Assembly: GCA_951406725.2 (NCBI GenBank)
Contig: OX597818.1
Location: 18,476,001 to 18,540,000 of the forward strand
DNA length: 64,000 bases
Source: Octopus vulgaris
Taxonomy: Eukaryota
Direction: 5' to 3'
The notes under the pieces are model-generated. The model did not search any database. It saw nothing but the letters and a program-made list of their open reading frames with translations, and was not told where the DNA came from. The stretch's first letter is position 1. Each line of letters begins with the position of its first letter. This document shows positions 1-43,300 of the stretch, one piece after another. The position numbers and the translations under genes were made by a program.

Positions 1-1565
1 ATGGTAGTGATCCCGACGCTCTAACCAATGAACCATATTCCTAAGCATTTTCCCCGGCATGCTAATTAGTCTGCCAACGGAAATATTACAGTGATGAATT
101 TGTTTCCTTTCCATCTTGAAATGTTACAATACTTTCTTCCCGGCTTAATGTTTGTCTTTAGGAGAAAGGGCTGTAAGTTATTCTTGATTGAGAATATTTC
201 CCGAAAACTTGCACTTTTGTGTCAATTCTATTAAAGTCACCCAAAGACAAGGTAGTAGTGTGAATGATGGACGTGAACACATTTCACAAGGAACCTCATT
301 CTGATGCTCTACCGACTCCGCCAACTCATTGCGCATGATTGACTGGTAAATTATTTTATCGATCTGAAAATTTTTATAGGCTACCTTGACCTCGCTGGGA
401 TCAGAACTCCGGGAGCAGAAGGCCAGAACAAATAACGGCATTCCATCACCCAGGACTGGTTCTTTAACTTCATCGATTTCGGATGTACGTATACAATAGA
501 AAGTTGATTCACTTCTTCAGAATTTGAACTCAGAGTGTAGGGAAACGGAGTAATTACCGTAAGGTATTTTCTCCCATGTTCTAGCTACTTTGCCTGGGAA
601 CTACTGCTATAAAGATTAACCTAAACTAGCGACCTTGACTGATGACATATCTCTTACTTATTCTGGCACAAAGCCGGTTATCTTGAAAGGGAAGGGCAAG
701 TCAATCAGACGCACCACTGTTCTCAACTTATTTTATTGATACTAAAAGGATGAAAGAGAAAGTAGACTTCGGTGACATTCAAAGAGCCGGAAAAAATATC
801 ACTAAATATTTTATCCGGCGAAGTAATGTTTCTACCTGTTCGCCATCTTAATAACAGTTCTTGCTGATTCGAGTACAAGGTCAGCAGTTTTTGTTAGAGA
901 AGCAAGTCGATTACATCGATCCAGTACTTGACTGGTACTTCAACGGAATTTGAACTCAAAATATATTGAATCAGATATTTTCTCCGATACGCTATCGATT
1001 CTGCCATCTCTCTGCCTTATTGGTTAAGGTAATATCCTTTTCTTAATGCTTAGCGGTATTTCGTCTGTCTTTATGTTCTGAGTTCAAATTCCGTTGAGGT
1101 CGTCTTTGACTTTCATCCTTTCGGGGTCGATAAATAAAGTACCAGCTGCGTCCTGGGCTCGATCTAATCGACTGGCCCCCTTCCCCAAAAATTTCGGGTA
1201 TTGTGCCTTGATTAGAAAAGAATATCCTTTGTTGACTTCGCTTTTCATCCTTTCGTAGTCTATCAAATAAGTACCAGTCGAGCACTGGGGTCGGTGTAAT
1301 CGACTTAATCTAAACTTGTTGACCTTGTGCCAAACTTTAAAATCAATATTCTATTCCTATTATGACAAAAGGCCTGCAATTTTAAATTGTGAGGAAATCG
1401 ATGACATCGAACCCAGTGCTCAAATGGTACTTAAATTATCGACTTCAAAAGGATGGAATGCAAAGTCGACCTCGGAATGCAAAGTCGAACTCAGAACATA
1501 AAGTCAGAAGAAATACCGCAAAAATTTTTTCCGACGCGGTATCAATTCTGCCAGCTCAGCACCTT
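1..1565. mobile_element. Cluster of ~6 degenerate tRNA-derived SINE copies (mostly minus strand; one plus-strand copy ~1045-1345)
   Basis: Recurrent variants of GGAATTTGAACTCAGAA, GGATGAAAGGCAAAGTCGAC and CTGGTACTT, matching the intact copy at 18938-19174. Confidence 0.8.
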
Positions 1566-32320: not shown

Positions 32321-35300
32321 ATAACTTAGAATAACTTAGAAAGGTTTTGGCCAGTATTGGCCCAGGCCATGTCTAACTTAATAGCACCACCTGGCGAAGT
32401 ATTTCAATTCAGGATTTGGGCACCAAGGCCCATTCGAGCAGAGAGTTATTGTTTGCGGAGACATATCCGGGTGTGGGTGGTTTGTCCGGGACTGTTTGAA
32501 GGAATTTGTCCAAAGACTTCTTGAATTTTGTGTGGTCAGTTTCTTTTTTGACGTGTGCTGGTGTAATGTTGAAGAGAGCGGGTCCAATTGAGGTGAAATA
32601 GTTGTGCCGTATTGTCGTTATGTGATGCGATTTAGATTTTTGTTGTGGGCGGATGGCACGTGGTCCAAGCCTTGGATGTATTTTGAAGGTGATGCCAACA
32701 TCATTCGGACAGTGCTGATGGAATATTTTCCACATCATACAGATAATGTAGCGTTCACGGCGTCGTTGGAGTGAATACAGTTTCAGCTTCTCTAGTCTAC
32801 CCCAGTAGTCAAGGTCTGACATGCCATCTATCTTTTTTGTGATTGACCTTTGGGGAGCTTCAATTCTCATAATATTTTGTTTTGTGTTGGCAGACCACAG
32901 TGGACAGCAGTATTCAAGGTGGGGTCGGGCAAAAGTGGAGAAGAGAAGGATAATAGTGTGGGAATCTCTCGACTGGAAGGTTCTGAGAATCCAGGAACAC
33001 ATTCTGCGGGCCATGTCAACTTTGCTGCTTATATGTGTAGCCCAGCTTATGTTGTTGTCCACTGTTACTCCCAAGTCTCTGATGTTGTTGGATGCCATGA
33101 GAATTTCTCCAGAAGGAAGAGAGTATGGGAGTTTCAGAGCGTCCTCCCTTCCAAAGTGGATCAGTTCGAATTTGTCTTTATTTAGCAACATGTTATTCTT
33201 TTCCACCCATTGGACAACAGCCAGTAGGTCTGACTGAAGGCTTATTCGGTCATCCACGCCATTGATGACCTTCTGGAGCTTGGAATCATCAGCGAAGGTT
33301 CTGATGTTACTGTGTTTGATGGTGTCAGTAATATCATTTATGTAGATGATGAAGAGAAGTGGGCCCAACACAGTGCCTTGTGGGACACCACTGCTGACTT
33401 TGGCTGGGCTGGATTTGACTCCTTCGACTACAACATGTTGGGTTCTGTTAGACAGGAAGCACTTGATCCACTGCAGCAGCTTTCCAGTGACACCAATATT
33501 GGACAGCTTTCTCAGAAGGATCTTATGATCAACCCTGTCAAAGGCCTTGCTGAAATCAAGGTAGATGACATCAGTGTTGGAACCCTCTCCCAAGGCTCTC
33601 AAAATGTCATCAAAATGATGCAGTAGCTGCGTCAGGCAATCTCTCCCATTACGGAATCCATGCTGGTTGGAGTTCAGCATATTATGACTCTCAAGGAAGT
33701 GAGTCATACGCGATCTCAGCACTCTCTCAAATACCTTAATGATATGAGAGGTGAGTGAGATTGGACGGTAATTCACGGCAAGCGATTTGTTTCCTTTTTG
33801 AAAACTGGGACAACAGACTGGGATAGAAGGTCTTCTGGTATATATCCAGCATCCAGTGAGTTCCGCCACAGATTGGCTAGAGGGGGTGCAAGTTGGTTTT
33901 GACACATCTTCAAGACACAAGCAGGGAACCTATCGGGACCTACTGCTGAATTATGCTTCATTTCCTTTATTGCTGCTAAGACATCAGGAGCGCCAAAGGT
34001 TATGTTCGATAAAGTGTATTGCGGAGTAACATCACTGATACAGCCCAGATCAGTCATATCAGGATTGCTGAAAACAGAGCAATATTGTTTTTGCAATATC
34101 TCTCCCATGGTTTTGGCATTGTCTTGAAGAGTACCATTTTCATCAATCAGAGGGCCAACAGTAGAACCAGTGACTCTGTGTTTTTTTTTGCAAATGAAAA
34201 GAACACTTTGGGATTGAGTTTGATCTTCTCAATGGCCCAGGCCTCTTCAGCTCTTCGCTGACTATTGATGATAGACATCATGTTGTTTTGGAGTTTATGT
34301 TTTTTAATCTCTAGCGACGAGATGGCAGTCAGGTTGGTGTGTTGCTGTTGACAGTATTTCAGCTTGTTGATTTTTTTGTTAATTCTTTTAATTTTCCTGA
34401 TGAGAGATTTTCTATTTCTAGGGATTCGACACTTAGATTTGTTTGCAGATTTTAATGGGGTGTGTTTTGCACATATGTTCGTAATGGTGTCTACAAATGA
34501 CTGCCAGGACTTTTTGATGTTAGTTGGTGTGTATGTGTGCGTGAAGGACCAATCGACTTGTGCAAGATCATTATTGATCGCTTCCCAGTTTGCATTGTGG
34601 AAATCCATAGTGTCAAATGGATGAACAGGAGGGATGACATTTGTTTTGCATTTTGGCCAGTGAAATCTCAGATCACAGAGAACCATGTCATGATCGGAGA
34701 GAAGGGTTTTCTCCACTGCAATATTGTGGATAGTATAAGTGTGATTGCTGAAAATTAAGTCTAAGACGTTTTTATGACATCTCGTTGGTTCGAGTACCAG
34801 TTGGGACAGGAAGAAATCATCCATGAAGTCAAGAAGCGATTCCACTGCCTCCCTGTCAGGGGTTGAGAGAGAAGAACCTGGCGGCAGACTGTTTGTAGAC
34901 CAGTCAACCCCGGGAAGGTTGAAATCTCCCATCATTAAAATGTTGTCAGGTTGACACTGCTGAATGAAACACTTTATGTTGTTGAGGAATTCCTTGAAGC
35001 ATGGTAGGGGCGGTTGGGGTGGTCTGTAGAGCCCAACTACTGTTAAGTTGTTGGTTTGACTGAATACAGCGACTGCTTCGCAGTATCCATTGGAAAATAT
35101 GTTCATGGCTTCTGTTGAGAATGAATCATGAACATAAATGGCAGTCCCACCCTTTCTTATGCCAGCACGATCAGCACGAATGGTTTTGAAATTTTTAACT
35201 TTCACCTCGGCTTCCAAGTGAAGGTTACTAAGATTGGTTTCAGTGAGGACGAAGAAAGGGATGTGGTTTGGATGGGCCTCGACCCAGTCCTCCAGGAATC

Positions 35301-35630
35301 TTCCATTTATGTGTATTGGTGGAAGGGCTGATGCCTTGGGCATTAAGCAAAAATGTTGAGGCGAGAGTGGATGGTTTTAATTGTTTTGGTGATTTGTTTA
35401 TTTGATTGCTTTTTAATGGCATGTGCAGTGGGGTAATAGTGGTGGATGGTGGTGGGTGATAGCTCGGATGTTTTTTTCCAGTTCTTTTGCTAGATTCATT
35501 ATAGCTAAAAAAGAGGAAGAAGAGGTTTCCTGTCTCGGGAACTGTAGGTGACTGTGGTTGTGGTTATATTTATATGAGTGGTTATTTCTATATGAGTCGT
35601 AGTTTTTTTTTTTGCTTTTATTTTTATTTA
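32321..35630 (-). mobile_element. CR1-type LINE, 5'-truncated in ORF1, complete but frameshifted ORF2
   Basis: APE endonuclease plus RT; 3' tandem tail (TCTAAGTTAT)2; flanked by (TA)n on both sides. Confidence 0.92.
32409..35422 (-). pseudogene. LINE ORF2 (APE endonuclease + reverse transcriptase) broken by three frameshifts
   Basis: LLNAQG (35240..35422); TET, GGTAIYV, GDFNLP, LDLIF, SDH (34147..35343); GPDRFP (33773..34108); YRPISLTS, YLDFSKAFDRV, SGVPQGTVLGP, FADDSKL (32409..33920). Confidence 0.92.
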
Positions 35631-37476: not shown

Positions 37477-39775
37477 ATTGCGAGATCGTCAACATTTTAT
37501 AAATTAAGATCTGGTGTGTTTTATGGCTATGATATCAAAATTTTACGAATTAAGGTCTGGTGTTTCATGGTAACGACGTCAAAATTTTGTGAATTGAGAT
37601 CTGGTTTTTTGGTGGCAATGCCGTCAAAATTATGTGAATTAAGGTCAGGTCTCTTTGATGGCTACAACATCAAAATTTTATGAATTAAGATCTGGTCTGT
37701 TTGAATGGTATGACACAAAATTTTATTATTGAGATCGGGTCTGTTTAAATGATACGACGTCAAAATTGTTTGAATTAAGACCTGGTATGTTTGAATGCTA
37801 TGGCGTCAAAGTTTTATAAATTACGTTCTGGTCTGTTTCAAGGCTACGACGTCAAAATTTTATGATTTAAAATCTGGTCTGATTGATGACTCCGACGTAA
37901 AAACTTTGTGAATTGATATCTGATCTATTTGAATAATAAGATTTGAACATTTTCTGAATGAAGATATGGTCTGTTTCAATGGTATGACACCAAAATGTTT
38001 TGTATTGAGATATGTCGGTGTTTGCATGATACAACGTCAAAATTTTATGAATTGCCATCTGGTCTGTTTGAATGATACGACGTTAAAATTTTAAGCATTG
38101 ACATCTGGTCTGTTTGAATGATACGAGGTCAAATTTTATGAATTGAGATCTACTGTTTGAATACTACAATGCCAAATCTTTATGAATTGAAATCTGGTCT
38201 GTTTAAATGCTACAACTTCAAAATTTTATGTATTAAGATCAGGTATGTTTAATAGCTACGAGGCCAAAATTTTATGAATTGAGGTCTGATCTGTTTGATG
38301 GCTGCAACGTCCAATTGTTATGAATTGAGATCAAGTCTATTCCATGGCTACGATGTCAGAATATTATGAAGTGAGAACAGGCGTCTTTGATGGATGACAT
38401 CAGAATTTTATGAATTTAGATCAGGACAGATTGAAGGCTACGGCTTCAAAATTTAATGCTTTGAGATCAGGTCTGTTTGATGGCTACGAAGTCAAAATTA
38501 TATGAATTAATATTTGGTTTGTTTGATGGTTACGACGTCAAAATTTTATGACTGTTATGATCAGGTCTGTTTGATGGCTACAAACTCAACGATTTATGAA
38601 TTTAAATCTGGTCTATTTGATGGCAACGATATCAAATGTTTATGCGTTCAGATATGGTCTGTTTGATAGCTACAACGTGAAAATTTGATGAATTGAGATC
38701 TACTCTGTTTGACGGCTACGGCTTCAAAATTTTATGAATTGAGATCAGGTCAGTTTGAAGGCTACGGTTTCAAAATTTTATGTCACGAGATCAGCTCTGC
38801 ATAATGGCTACATCACAATTATATGAATTGAGAACTGGTCTGCTGGATGGCTGTGACGTCAAAATTTTATGTATTGAGATCAGTTCCCTTTGATGGCTAC
38901 GACGTGAAAATTTCATGAATTGAGGCCTGGTCTGTTTGATGGCTACGACGACAGAATTGTATGAATTGAAATCTGATCTGTTTAATTGTTACGTCGACAA
39001 AAGTTTATAGAATAAGATCATGTGTGTGATGGATGATATAAAACTTTTATGAAATGTGATGGCTACAACGTCAAAATTGTATAAATTAATATCTAATTTG
39101 TTTCATGGCTACGACATCAAAATTTTATGAACTAAAAACCAGCTATATTTGATGTTTACGGCCTCAAAATTTTGTGAATTGAAATCTGATCTGTTTGATC
39201 ACTGCGTTGTCAGAATGTTATGAATTGACATCAGGTCTGTTTGAATGCTACGACAGCACAGTTTTATGAATTAAGAATTGGACTGCTGAATGCTACGGCG
39301 TCAAACTTTATGAAGAAGATCATGTCTGAATGATACGATGTTGAAATTTTATGCATTGAGATCAGGTCTGTTTGAATGCTAAAATTCCGAAACTTTATGA
39401 ATTGAAATCTGGTCTATTTGAATGATGCGACGTCAAAATTTTATGCCTTGAGATCAGGACAGTTTTATAGCTACGAGGCCAAAATTTTATGAATTTGAGG
39501 TCTGATCTGTTTCATGGCTACAACGTCAAATTGCTATGACTTGAGATCAAGTCTATTCGATGGCTACGACGTCAGAATATTATGAAGTGAAAACAAGCGA
39601 CTTTGATGGATGACATCAGAATTTTATGAATTGAGATTAGGCTAGATTGAAGGCTACGGCTTCAAAATTAAATGCATTGAGATTATGTCCGTTTGATTGC
39701 TACGAAGTTAAAATTTTATGAATTGAGTACATTATTTACATTTGACGGATATTTGTCTTCATCTTGTTTGCTGTT

Positions 39776-39821
39776 AACACAACGTTTCGGCTGATATACC
39801 CTTCAGCCTTCATCAGGTGTC
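39776..39821 (-). ncRNA. Minimal type-I hammerhead ribozyme
   Basis: GACAC-CUGAUGA-A-GGCUGA-AGGGUAUA-UCAGCC-GAAAC-GUU-GUGUU: intact core, stem I GACAC/GUGUU, 6-bp stem II, loopless ACGU stem III as described for PLE hammerheads. Confidence 0.88.
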
Positions 39822-39902
39822 TTGGGGAAATTTTGAACCTGAGTTCTCATTCTTAAGGTATTTTTCAATGTTATTATTATTGCTATTATTATTAGTATTA
39901 TT

Positions 39903-39977
39903 CAGGTCACTGCTTGGAATCGAACTCGGAATCTTGGGGCTAGTAGCCCACGCTCTTAACCACTACGTCATATGCCC
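39903..39977 (-). promoter_or_regulatory. tRNA-like internal Pol III promoter (A and B boxes) in the PLE 3' UTR
   Basis: Minus strand GGGCATA-TGACGTAGTGG-TTAAGAGCGTGGGCTACTAGCCCCAAGATTCC-GAGTTCGATTCC-AAGCAGTGACC. Confidence 0.8.
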
Positions 39978-40006
39978 GCGAGCAATTATGGAATGAATTT
40001 TAGGGC

Positions 40007-40351
40007 TTATAAATCTAATATTTTTCTATCCTTCCTTAATACCGGTTCCCATATACTACTCATATCTGCACTCAGTTTGCTCAGGAGATTGTTGTGTCCT
40101 GGCATATGTGCTGCTTCTTTTAGTTTTCGTATTTTCCAGTGGTATTCTCTGTCTATTATTTTAACTTCATCCCAGAGAGGGAGATGGTCTCCATTTTTCC
40201 ATACATGATCAGCTATACCCGATTTATCAATATCTCCTTGTGTCACTACTTTGCGATGTTCCTCTACCCTTATCTTGAGTGGGCGGTATGTTTCACCTTT
40301 GTATAACCTACCATAGCTGCATGGAATGGAATACACGTAGTCTTTGGTCAT
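40007..40351 (-). pseudogene. GIY-YIG endonuclease domain of Penelope-like element
   Basis: VYSIPCSYGRLYKGETYRPLKIRVEEH..SGIADH..KLKEA; upstream RT part contains stops. Confidence 0.9.
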
Positions 40352-43300
40352 ATTCTCTTCTATTGGTGGTTTTACTCGAAGGAGATATTTGCGAAGTGTT
40401 GTATTACTCTTGAATACTGTCCTGATGCCATAAAGGCCGCATATCTTTTGTATCTTTTCGGAGAGGCCTTACACATAGGGTAGGTAGACTGTAGACAATT
40501 TATTGGCCTCGTCATCTCTCTTCTTCGTAATTGGAGTGGATAGTATACTTTTGGGGTAGTTGTTGCTTAACAGATCATTATTGAGTTTGATCATTTCTTC
40601 GTGGTGTGTATCACGATCGCTACTTATATTCTTTGCACGATGTTTTAGGCACTGAGCAATCTCTCTCTTTACACTGTATGGATGGTGGAAATTGAAGTTG
40701 AGGTATCGTCAAGTGAAGGTCGGCTTGCGATATACGGATGTCCTGAATCTATACTTGGTGCTTCTTATTAATACGTCCAGGAATGCCAGCTGATTGCCTT
40801 TTTCCTTTTAAATTGTGAACTGTATGGATGGAAAAGGAAAAAGACAATCAGCTGGCATTCCTGGACGTATTACTAACAAGCACCAAGTATAGATTCAGGA
40901 CATCCGTATATCGCAAGCCGACCTTCATTGGACGATACCTTTATTATGAATTATGAATTATGAAGAAGACAGAGGATGATATGACGTCAAACTTTTATGA
41001 ATTAAGATCTGGTCTGTTCGAATGCGACGACGTTCGAATTTCAGGATTTGAGATCTGATCTGTTTGAATGCTACAACGTCCAACTTATGAATTATGATCT
41101 GACCTCTTTCATAATTGAGATCAGGCGACTTTTTTGGATGACGTCAGAATACTATGAATCGAGATCAGATTACATTGAAGTATATGGCTTCAAAATTTAA
41201 TGCATTGAGATCAGGTCTGTTTAATGGCTACGACGTCAAATTTTATGATTCGATTTCTGGTCTTTTTGATGGCTGCAACGTCAAATTTTATGAATTGAGA
41301 TCATGTCTATTCGATGGCTACCACGTCAAAATTTTATGAAGTGAGAACAGGCAAGCTTAATGGATGACGTCAGAATTTTACAAATTGAGATCAGGTTAGT
41401 TTGAAGGCTACGGCCTCAAAATGTAATGCATTGAGGTCAGGTCTGTTTGATGGCTACAATATCATAATTATGTGAATTGAAATCTGGTCTTTTTTTATGG
41501 TTACGACGTCAAAATTTTATGATTTGAGTTCAGGTCTGTTTGATGGCTACAACCTCGAGATTATTTGTTAGCTACGATGTCTGGTCTCTGTGATGGCTAC
41601 AATGTCAACATTTTATGCATTGAGATCTACTCTGTTTGATGGCTACGGCTTCAAAATTTTATGAATGGAGAGCTACTCCTTTTGATCCCTATGACGTCCA
41701 ACTTTTATGAGTTCAGATCAGTTTCGATTGATGGCTACGACGACAAAATTTTATGAATTGAGATCAGGTCAGTTTGAAGGCTACGGTCTTAAAATTTTAT
41801 GCATCGAGTTCAGGTCTCCATATTTTCTACGACGTCAAAATTATATGAATTGACATCTGGTCTGCTTGATGGCTACGACACCAAATCTTGTTGTATTGAG
41901 TGAAATTAGGTCTGTTTCATGGCTACATCGTGAAAATTTTATAAATTGTGGTCTGGTCTGTTTAATTGCTACGTCGTCTAAATTGTATGAAATAAGATCG
42001 GGTGTGTGTGATGGATGATGTCATAATTTTATGGAATGTTATGAGGTCTGCTTCATGGCTACCGCGTCAAAATGTTACGAATTGAGATCTACTGTTTGAT
42101 GGATACGACATGAAAATTTTATGAACTAAAATCGGCTATGTTTGATGTCTTCGCCGCCAAATTTTTTTAATTGAAATCTGGTATGATTAATTGCTATCAG
42201 GTCTGTTTCAATCAAAATTTCAAGAATTGATATCTGGTGTGTTTGATGACTACGACGTTAAAATTTTATGAATTACGACCTGATCTCTTTGAATGCTACG
42301 ATGTCAGAACTTTATAAATTGAGATCAGGTTTGGTTGATTGCTACGACGCCAAAATTTTATGAATTGAGACCTGGTCTGTCAAATGGCTGTGATGTCTAA
42401 ATTGATGAATGAAGATCTGGTCTGTTTGATGGCTACGACGTCAAAATTTTATGAATTGATATCGGGTCTCGTGAATGCTACGACAACATTTGAACAACTG
42501 AGATCTGCTGTGTTTGATGGCTACAACGTCAAAGCTTTATGAATTGAGATCAGGTATGTTTGATGTGTACGAAGTCAAAATTTTATGAAAGGAAATCTGG
42601 TGTGTTTGATGGCTACGACGTCAAAATTTTATGATTCAAGGTCAGGTCTATTTGAATGATACATCGTCCAAATTTTATGAGTGAGATCAACGACGCCAAA
42701 ATTTTATGAACTGAGATTGTTGAACAGGTGTCTCTGTCCAAACTCCAATTCAAACCGCTTGCATTTACACATTTCTTTTGTAATTCCCATTAGTTGACCT
42801 GAAAAAATATGGTATAAAATGTTCCTAGGCGTTGGTTATCTATAGTGTTTCGATTTTTAGCAGTGAAGATGGATAAAGTGTCATTCCACATTCTATAAAC
42901 ACAATTTCATCATAAAACCTCCCACTTGACGACGGAAAAGTTTTCAGGAGTTCTAAGTTAACTTCCAGTGTAGTTTTGTATGCGTCACCTTTTTATTTTG
43001 CTCTTCGGGAGAATTCGTATATTTGCTCACCATCGGTTATGTTTGTGTTTGCGTACAAACTTTATTAATTCATTATTGTCCTTTCGTGCAAAAAGGAAAT
43101 TCCAGGAAGTTAGTTGTTGCTGTTTCTGATAAGACTGTTGCTTTTGTTGTTGTTAAGGTTTTTTTTTTTTTGAGGTGTTAATAACTGAAGAGAAATGTAT
43201 TAGAATGAATGTAATGAGACAAAAAAACAATAATTTTAGTCGACACATAGCGATTAAATTGATTACGGATACAAGAATACAAGATTTAAAGATCTTCTGC

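What the first reader, a model, noticed from the sequence alone, without database searches (positions are those of the whole stretch)
39728..40006. Penelope 3' end carries a tRNA-derived Pol III promoter just upstream of an intact hammerhead
Seen on the minus strand after the GIY-YIG stop: a tRNA-like block with A box (TGACGTAGTGG) and B box (GAGTTCGATTCC) at 39977-39903, an (AAT)n spacer, a second B-box-like GGTTCAAAATTTCC, then a canonical minimal hammerhead (39821-39776). No run of four T occurs between promoter and ribozyme on that strand. Inference: the pLTR may be a self-contained Pol III unit whose ~200-nt transcript is 3'-processed by self-cleavage. That would be a SINE-like ribozyme module built into an autonomous PLE, reminiscent of Schistosoma SM-alpha repeats.
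Basis: partly seen in the sequence, partly recalled or inferred. Interest (0 to 1): 0.8.

Follow-up and report, generated by a model that had tools for sequence, protein, structure and literature searches.

The report
Penelope retrotransposon with captured tRNA promoter

Summary
In detail: tRNA-like head (39977-39905), (AAT)n, minimal hammerhead (39822-39776) after a Penelope GIY-YIG frame. It is not a one-off insertion: 45 of 53 ORF-selected copies carry the head. Most head-bearing copies lack the ORF and start at the head: 60 of 70 begin between -8 and +12 of tRNA position 1, roughly 10,000 copies. They show Penelope hallmarks (inverted partner, tail at one end only). The proposed 3' processing by the ribozyme is not supported: copies end about 50 or 85 nt past the cut site, and the hammerhead and 'second B box' lie inside the predicted ORF start (ATG 39850). 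Best reading: RNA starts at the head, probably by Pol III, and internal priming, as shown for the anole element (PMC11167929), copies its first 250-280 nt. The 2,655-nt family majority unit has no run of four T (p about 0.03-0.08), unlike other Penelope ORFs, so the autonomous RNA itself may be a Pol III transcript. No transcript start was observed directly; a Pol II start or a hairpin-set boundary remains open. My searches found no report of this arrangement.

The parts
40007..40831 (-). 5'-truncated end of the Penelope ORF (RT C-terminal part and GIY-YIG-type endonuclease; open frame 40468-40007; stop codon 40009-40007)
   Evidence: (93% to family majority)
40828..40940 (+). inverted fragment of the same element at the 5' junction, a Penelope-type insertion feature
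39973..39984 (-). short palindrome (5-bp arms, 2-nt loop in the family; decayed here) spanning -7 to +5, where 5' ends of copies pile up
39905..39977 (-). tRNA-derived head with A box (39970-39960) and B box (39927-39916); predicted Pol III type 2 promoter
   Evidence: promoter activity inferred
39872..39902 (-). (AAT/AAC)n spacer, variable in length, often interrupted by later insertions
39848..39850 (-). predicted start codon of the 835-aa ORF when this repeat stands upstream of an element (position +119)
   Evidence: N-terminal match to protein P0001
39826..39839 (-). second B-box-like stretch; falls on predicted codons 4-9 of the ORF
39776..39822 (-). minimal type I hammerhead motif with palindromic stem III, predicted cut between 39781 and 39780; overlaps predicted coding sequence
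   Evidence: definition from PMC4209133; cleavage untested
39728..39775 (-). 3' end of the copy at the first of two family end points (+240); the optional 34-nt tail is absent here
37487..39727 (.). 46-bp satellite array, left flank of the insertion (target, not part of the element)
41190..42689 (.). 46-bp satellite array, right flank of the insertion (target)

Best explanation
[quoted passage not shown] Shown: the anatomy, the linkage of head to ORF, the pile-up of 5' ends at the head, the two 3' end points, the Penelope-type ends of short copies. Inferred: (1) a tRNA-derived SINE-like sequence with an (AAT)n tail landed once between the ORF stop and the hammerhead; (2) Pol III starts about 2-7 nt before tRNA position 1; (3) the element's protein primes reverse transcription internally about 120 and 155 nt after the ATG, as shown in vitro for the anole element, so RNA that starts at the head and runs into the ORF start gives 250-280-nt SINE-like copies; (4) full-length copies need read-through to the next repeat, which the absence of T4 runs would allow; (5) the hammerhead does not make the ends of the copies, and cutting would remove the start codon, so it may act as an off-switch or late processing step.
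For: Head fixed in the family: 45 of 53 distinct ORF-selected copies that reach the ORF end have it; of the 43 that also reach the ribozyme part, 38 have it whole, 3 in part, 2 lost it in deletions. 5' ends: of 70 head-selected copies 60 start at -8..+12 (48 at -8..+6), 8 run into the ORF side, 2 start at -14 and -21. In 71 copies selected on the 3' end only, 30 reach +12 or further intact; 22 of these start at -7..+9. All 3 heads in 600 kb of evenly spaced genome start at -7, -7, +2. Loose ends pile up at the same place in contigs of two other organisms and RNA reads of a third. 3' ends cluster at +240..247 (36 of 71) and +269..274 (32 of 71). Tail at one end only in 32 of 33 copies that show it (50 examined); inverted partner beside 39 of 70. 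In-frame ATG at +119 gives 835 aa, whose N-terminus matches P0001 (57% over 829 columns). No T4 run in the 2,655-nt majority unit: codon shuffle mean 2.9, P(0) 0.028; first-order Markov P(0) 0.079; low-T control ORFs give P(0) 0.024, and all 24 control ORFs of 2 kb or more have at least 4 runs; two other Penelope families in G000 have 7-14 and 8-9 runs per ORF. No control has a strict A+B box before its hammerhead (0 of 18; relaxed 1 of 18). Two 5'-complete copies start at the head and run into the ORF (L191, L205).
Against: No transcript start was seen: RNA reads of a related organism cover both strands and show no pile-up of starts or ends. The start site coincides with a palindrome, and rotifer Penelope repeats also have defined 5' ends with palindromes and no reported tRNA head (PMC3846280). 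Two hairpins of similar size further down also collect some ends (6 of 71 at +125..135, 5 of 71 at +185..192). The T4 test is only borderline, rests on one family, uses a majority sequence, and 2 of 58 control ORFs (1.0 and 1.4 kb) also have none. Among 5'-complete copies whose upstream repeat includes the head start, 4 continue into an upstream ORF end (L181, L187, L188, L195) against 2 that start at the head. The described Drosophila Penelope promoter resembles the TATA-less internal promoters of LINEs (PMC2377424). Translation of an uncapped Pol III RNA is unexplained. Selecting copies by exact pattern favours young copies, and they come from the first contigs only.
Confidence: 0.55

Rival explanations
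1. The short copies are a self-propagating, Penelope-dependent SINE: solo copies are Pol III units whose RNA is copied in trans, while the autonomous element is transcribed by Pol II from upstream.
For: Short copies meet the sequence criteria of a SINE (definitions). They outnumber ORF-linked heads about 7 to 1. Four 5'-complete copies start upstream of the head. Head-start units sometimes follow unrelated body fragments in tandem (L188, L218, L220).
Against: No fixed diagnostic substitutions between 135 short and 80 ORF-linked heads over 219 sites; the largest differences are CpG sites inside or near the selection pattern; divergence is similar (4.1% vs 4.9% non-CpG). Short copies end at the priming sites and lack ORF sequence beyond them, which the anole protein needed (first 172 nt of the ORF). 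It does not explain the missing T4 runs.
Confidence: 0.2
2. The head is a passenger: the boundary is set by a Pol II start or by self-priming at the -7..+5 palindrome, and the A and B boxes are not used.
For: Palindrome exactly at the modal start; inverted partners often join there; defined palindromic repeat ends in rotifer elements; internal LINE-like promoter in Drosophila Penelope; head does not fold as a tRNA at normal thresholds.
Against: Hairpins of the same arm length elsewhere stop about a tenth of copies, the head about three quarters. About 23 of the 60 head-start copies have no adjacent inverted partner (score under 40, counted from the table). Starts sit 9-14 nt before the A box, as in SINEs (10-15 nt per PMC8969392). 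Both boxes match consensus in the family majority.
Confidence: 0.2
3. One reading: a ~200-nt Pol III transcript is cut at GUU by the hammerhead and this product is the functional or mobile RNA.
For: The core is intact in the family majority and in 61 of 108 short copies; SM-alpha precedent (PMC6765202); such an RNA could exist without being retrotransposed.
Against: Copies do not end at the cut site. Minimal hammerheads were inactive as monomers and weak as dimers (PMC4209133). No reads begin or end at the site in anole data or in the related-organism RNA laid here (standard libraries, weak test). Tandem short arrays were rare among the loci seen.
Confidence: 0.04
4. RNase P cuts a longer transcript at position 1 of the tRNA-like fold and so defines the 5' end.
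For: 6 of 70 copies start exactly at +1.
Against: 30 of 70 start at -8..-1, some without an inverted partner that could supply those bases; the acceptor stem is poorly paired.
Confidence: 0.03

Closest known systems
Penelope/Poseidon elements, e.g. Poseidon of Anolis carolinensis (PMC11167929, parts 1-2 of 4 read; PMC4209133, parts 1-2 of 4 read)
   Same: Single RT + C-terminal GIY-YIG ORF, partial tandem and inverted repeats, minimal hammerhead overlapping the ORF start, two end points defining an optional 30-40-nt tail.
   Different: A tRNA-derived A/B-box head in the repeat, a sharp pile-up of copy starts there, and no T4 run in the unit; none of this appears in the passages read or in 18 control elements.
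Schistosoma SM-alpha / Sj-alpha (seen only through a review's passages, PMC6765202, and PMC8490949 passages; originals not read)
   Same: Pol III-type promoter followed by a type I hammerhead in a short repeat.
   Different: SM-alpha is described as tandem and cleaved out of multimers; no autonomous partner carrying the same promoter is described in what I read. Here the module is part of an autonomous element, is dispersed, and is copied uncut.
TRIMp3 elements Helenus, Ajax, Cassandra (PMC10886601, passages)
   Same: Small-RNA-derived Pol III promoter captured into a terminal repeat, proposed to arise by SINE insertion.
   Different: Those are non-autonomous LTR elements; the paper states their autonomous partners must use Pol II. 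Here the head sits in the repeat of the protein-coding element.
Metazoan non-LTR retrozymes (PMC7761336 passages; bioRxiv 10.64898/2026.07.22.740005 parts 1-3 of 5)
   Same: Short hammerhead-bearing repeats related to Penelope terminal repeats and thought to use Penelope machinery.
   Different: Defined by tandem units, said to lack promoters and to give circular RNA; here units are mostly single or inverted pairs and have a promoter-like head.
tRNA-derived SINEs, including octopus OR1/OR2/OK (Ohshima and Okada 1994; seen only as a reference; tRNA-Arg origin recalled)
   Same: tRNA-derived head, under 700 bp, thousands of dispersed copies.
   Different: Partner is a Penelope element, not a LINE; ends are Penelope-type. 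OR1 is a CORE-SINE (PMC4824008 passage).

Membership tests
Penelope-like element, EN+ (Penelope/Poseidon type) | One ORF with RT and C-terminal GIY-YIG-type domain | tested here: met
   801-aa frame in the majority of 52 segments, 835 aa with the ATG; RVT_1 E 2.4e-10 on a copy; 37% over 806 columns to Anolis protein P0014
Penelope-like element, EN+ (Penelope/Poseidon type) | Partial-tandem pseudo-LTR and inverted 5' copies | tested here: met
Penelope-like element, EN+ (Penelope/Poseidon type) | Optional 30-40-nt tail at one end | tested here: met
   32 of 33 copies that show it, 50 examined
Penelope-like element, EN+ (Penelope/Poseidon type) | Placement in the Penelope/Poseidon clade by tree | not tested
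   similarity only; no tree built
Minimal type I hammerhead | CUGANGA and GAAA cores, 4-5-bp stem I, long stem II, palindromic stem III | tested here: met
   against PMC4209133
Minimal type I hammerhead | Self-cleavage as a dimer or with protein | not testable with these tools
   needs in vitro assay
SINE (SINEBase definition) | Under 1 kb, interspersed, at least 100 copies | tested here: met
   477 exact head matches; 60 of 70 short
SINE (SINEBase definition) | At least 60% identity to a tRNA over 60 nt or more | tested here: met
   50 of 76 columns to tRNA-Arg(TCT); donor isotype not settled, 6 isotypes sampled
SINE (SINEBase definition) | Transcription by Pol III | not testable with these tools
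   indirect only; RNA-seq uninformative
SINE (SINEBase definition) | Mobilised by a partner LINE | tested here: not met
   3' part is the Penelope repeat and ends are Penelope-type
SINE (SINEBase definition) | Propagates from its own copies as a separate lineage | tested here: inconclusive
   no fixed diagnostic sites in 135 vs 80 heads; sample small and pattern-biased
Non-LTR retrozyme | Two or more consecutive tandem units, each with a hammerhead | tested here: not met
   loci seen are mostly single or head-to-head; a few head-to-tail pairs; no genome-wide tandem search
SM-alpha-like repeat | Unit ends set by ribozyme cleavage | tested here: not met

The most novel reading that the evidence does not exclude
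An autonomous, protein-coding Penelope retrotransposon swapped to a captured tRNA promoter: its 2.7-kb unit RNA is made by RNA polymerase III, was purged of T4 terminators, is translated without a cap, and sheds about 10,000 SINE-like copies from its own 5' end.
Probability: 0.35. Interest if true: 0.88.

Novelty: new variant of a known kind. Interest (0 to 1): 0.7.

Why it matters
Penelope promoters are known from little more than one Drosophila element, and long protein-coding retrotransposons are assumed to need Pol II (stated for LTR partners in PMC10886601). A family whose copies start at a tRNA promoter and whose unit lacks Pol III terminators makes that assumption directly testable. It also offers a concrete route by which a Penelope element gives rise to SINE-like repeats, a link proposed for retrozymes but without a promoter. 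Practically, about 10,000 copies are likely annotated as ordinary SINEs although their ends show Penelope machinery.

Tried and rejected
Rfam at gathering and E-value thresholds and ARAGORN: no call for head or ribozyme. One-off SINE insertion: rejected. Target-site duplication around the head inside the element: none evident by eye; among 16 solo short copies checked, 2 had an 11-12-nt duplication. Separate SINE family with this head and another body: none seen; the 19 of 70 copies with a weak ribozyme match are truncated, deleted or interrupted. Second B box as a second promoter: set aside, it falls on predicted codons. Run search: no RNA holder listed; raw RNA reads of a related organism are unstranded in effect, cover the short module about 100-fold deeper than the ORF start, and show no start or end pile-ups, so they say nothing on Pol III. 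One search was aimed at the wrong strand coordinates and hit another repeat; unused. First metagenome scan found nothing. One search timed out and was redone. Earlier scan findings: none. Literature: nine searches were answered; none listed a paper on a tRNA-derived promoter in a Penelope repeat; subscription journals and Repbase entries are not covered. Lunse et al. 2017 was not held; SINEBase supplements could not be seen, and supplements of the 2026 octopus repeat annotation (PMC13282606, passages only) were not opened; both may name this repeat.

Full report
Setting. The window lies on contig C5 of G000, a 2.80-Gb assembly in 227 contigs. No call names the host; from recall the repeat and genome scale fit an octopus. 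Positions written +n or -n count from tRNA position 1 (window 39977, minus strand).

Observation. The copy is a 5'-truncated element (40831 to 39728, with an inverted fragment at 40828-40940) inserted in a 46-bp satellite. Rfam and ARAGORN do not call the head or the ribozyme. The family head aligns to a genomic tRNA-Arg(TCT) at 50 of 76 columns, the best of 30 tRNA loci from 6 isotypes. The ribozyme fits the minimal type I description in PMC4209133 (parts 1-2 read).

The family. Exact patterns for the head, the hammerhead and the 3' end occur 477, 925 and 1,888 times, with no control matches. Sixty evenly spaced 10-kb stretches held 7 loci with family pieces and 3 heads, which scales to roughly 30,000 insertions and 10,000 heads, with wide error. 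Walking upstream gave near full-length copies. The majority of 52 segments reads as one frame with RT and GIY-YIG-type domains. In tandem context the frame extends back into the terminal repeat to an ATG at +119, giving 835 aa. Its N-terminus, including the residues encoded by the hammerhead, matches protein P0001 from another organism. So the hammerhead and the 'second B box' lie in predicted coding sequence. Copies are a median 92% and at most 96% identical to the majority (106 segments), so the family looks old in this genome. ORF-end-to-head linkage also appears in contigs of two other organisms.

The head belongs to the family. Of 53 distinct copies chosen by ORF sequence that reach the ORF end, 45 have the head; of 43 that also reach the ribozyme part, 38 have it whole, 3 in part and 2 have deletions across it. 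None of 18 control Penelope elements from metagenome contigs has a strict A+B box between stop and hammerhead; one passes a relaxed pattern; the pattern finds this family.

Copies start at the head. I examined the first 70 of the 477 head matches: 60 start between -8 and +12 (48 between -8 and +6, mode -7), 8 continue into the ORF side, 2 start at -14 and -21. The pattern begins at +12, so later starts are excluded by design. In 71 matches of the 3' pattern from 70 fetched stretches (of 1,888), 30 reach +12 or further intact: 22 start at -7..+9, 2 at -14 and -26, 6 continue into the ORF; the other 41 start further down or are broken in the microsatellite. All three heads in the unbiased sample start at -7, -7 and +2. 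Loose ends pile up at the same position in two other organisms' contigs and a third's RNA reads. Calls at -7..-3 are partly ambiguous because the site is a palindrome and inverted partners supply the same bases.

Copies end past the ribozyme. Of the 70 head-selected copies 33 end at +235..250, 19 beyond +250, 3 at +197..234, 4 before +180, 10 have no ribozyme part within the fetched stretch, and 1 ends at the cut site +188, where the fetched stretch ends. The two end points lie about 120 and 155 nt after the ATG. In the anole element reverse transcription starts internally at two sites that bound the tail, one 111-118 nt into the ORF; the first 172 nt of the ORF are needed; and ribozyme cleavage is dispensable (PMC11167929, parts 1-2). 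The tail appears at one end only in 32 of 33 copies that show it, of 50 examined, and 39 of 70 have an adjacent inverted partner; both are Penelope hallmarks (PMC8557442 passages). Short and ORF-linked heads show no fixed differences and similar divergence.

Mechanism. These facts fit RNA that starts at the head, runs through the ribozyme uncut into the ORF start, and is primed internally, giving 250-280-nt copies. The start lies 9-14 nt before the A box, as for SINEs (PMC8969392 passage). Pol III use is inferred. Pol III stops at T runs (established knowledge); the 2,655-nt majority unit has none, against 2.5-3.7 expected (P 0.028 codon shuffle, 0.079 Markov, 0.024 from low-T controls). All 24 control ORFs of 2 kb or more have at least 4 runs, but 2 of 58 controls, both short, have none (22 of 80 loci had no usable ORF and were dropped). 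Two other Penelope families in G000 have 7-14 and 8-9 runs per ORF. In individual copies T4 runs occur at 0.40 per kb, none shared by more than 4 of about 65 copies, as expected from later mutation. This is suggestive, not decisive.

Against. No transcript start was observed; the RNA libraries were uninformative. The start coincides with a palindrome; rotifer elements also have palindromic repeat ends (PMC3846280 passages), and two similar hairpins further down collect about a tenth of ends each. Four 5'-complete copies begin upstream of the head against two that begin at it, so longer templates exist. The Drosophila promoter resembles LINE internal promoters (PMC2377424 passages).

Known systems and novelty. 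It is a Penelope-like element by every feature tested. The short copies work like a SINE but fail the LINE-partner criterion (PMC3531059, section 4 read) and are not retrozymes or SM-alpha repeats by unit structure. The nearest concept is TRIMp3, which covers non-autonomous LTR elements only (PMC10886601 passages). Ten paper searches listed no report of a tRNA promoter in a Penelope repeat; the 2026 octopus repeat annotation has no occurrence of 'hammerhead' or 'ribozyme' in its main text. Repbase and subscription journals were not searchable.

Verdict. Real feature, new variant of a known kind. Interest 0.7. Best explanation 0.55. The boldest reading, a Pol III-transcribed autonomous element, 0.35.

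Noticed in passing
window 37487-39727 and 41190-42689: Degenerate 46-bp satellite arrays (33, 15 and 32 units) into which the element is inserted.
   Followed up: partly
window 33773-35376, minus strand: Frames resembling the AP endonuclease and RT start of a LINE (by eye from the translation).
   Followed up: no
L406-L410 (G000 C6, C4, C9, C3): A young Penelope family with intact 884-1008-aa frames in many near-identical copies, followed by long (CA)-rich simple repeats; its repeat appears to hold a hammerhead-like motif with a changed core (CCGACGA).
   Followed up: partly
L101, L102, L108, L109, L111, L112, L114 (G000 C31): At least seven near-identical copies of a larger amplified unit on one 12-Mb contig, each holding the same truncated element.
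   Followed up: no
L177, L183, L185, L187, L188, L193, L198, L203, L204, L218, L220: Copies in which 230-650 nt of the ORF start are followed by a new 3' piece or a head-start unit, suggesting priming further into the ORF or template jumps.
   Followed up: partly
L065, L070, L076, L077, L083, L090, L241: The (AAT)n spacer is often split by later insertions of other repeats.
   Followed up: partly
window 39971-39963, minus strand (family position +7): A two-codon upstream frame (ATG, one codon, stop) lies inside the A box in the family majority, ahead of the predicted main ATG.
   Followed up: no
L116-L145: An unrelated abundant repeat (3,649 first-look candidates) hit by the mis-aimed search.
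   Followed up: no
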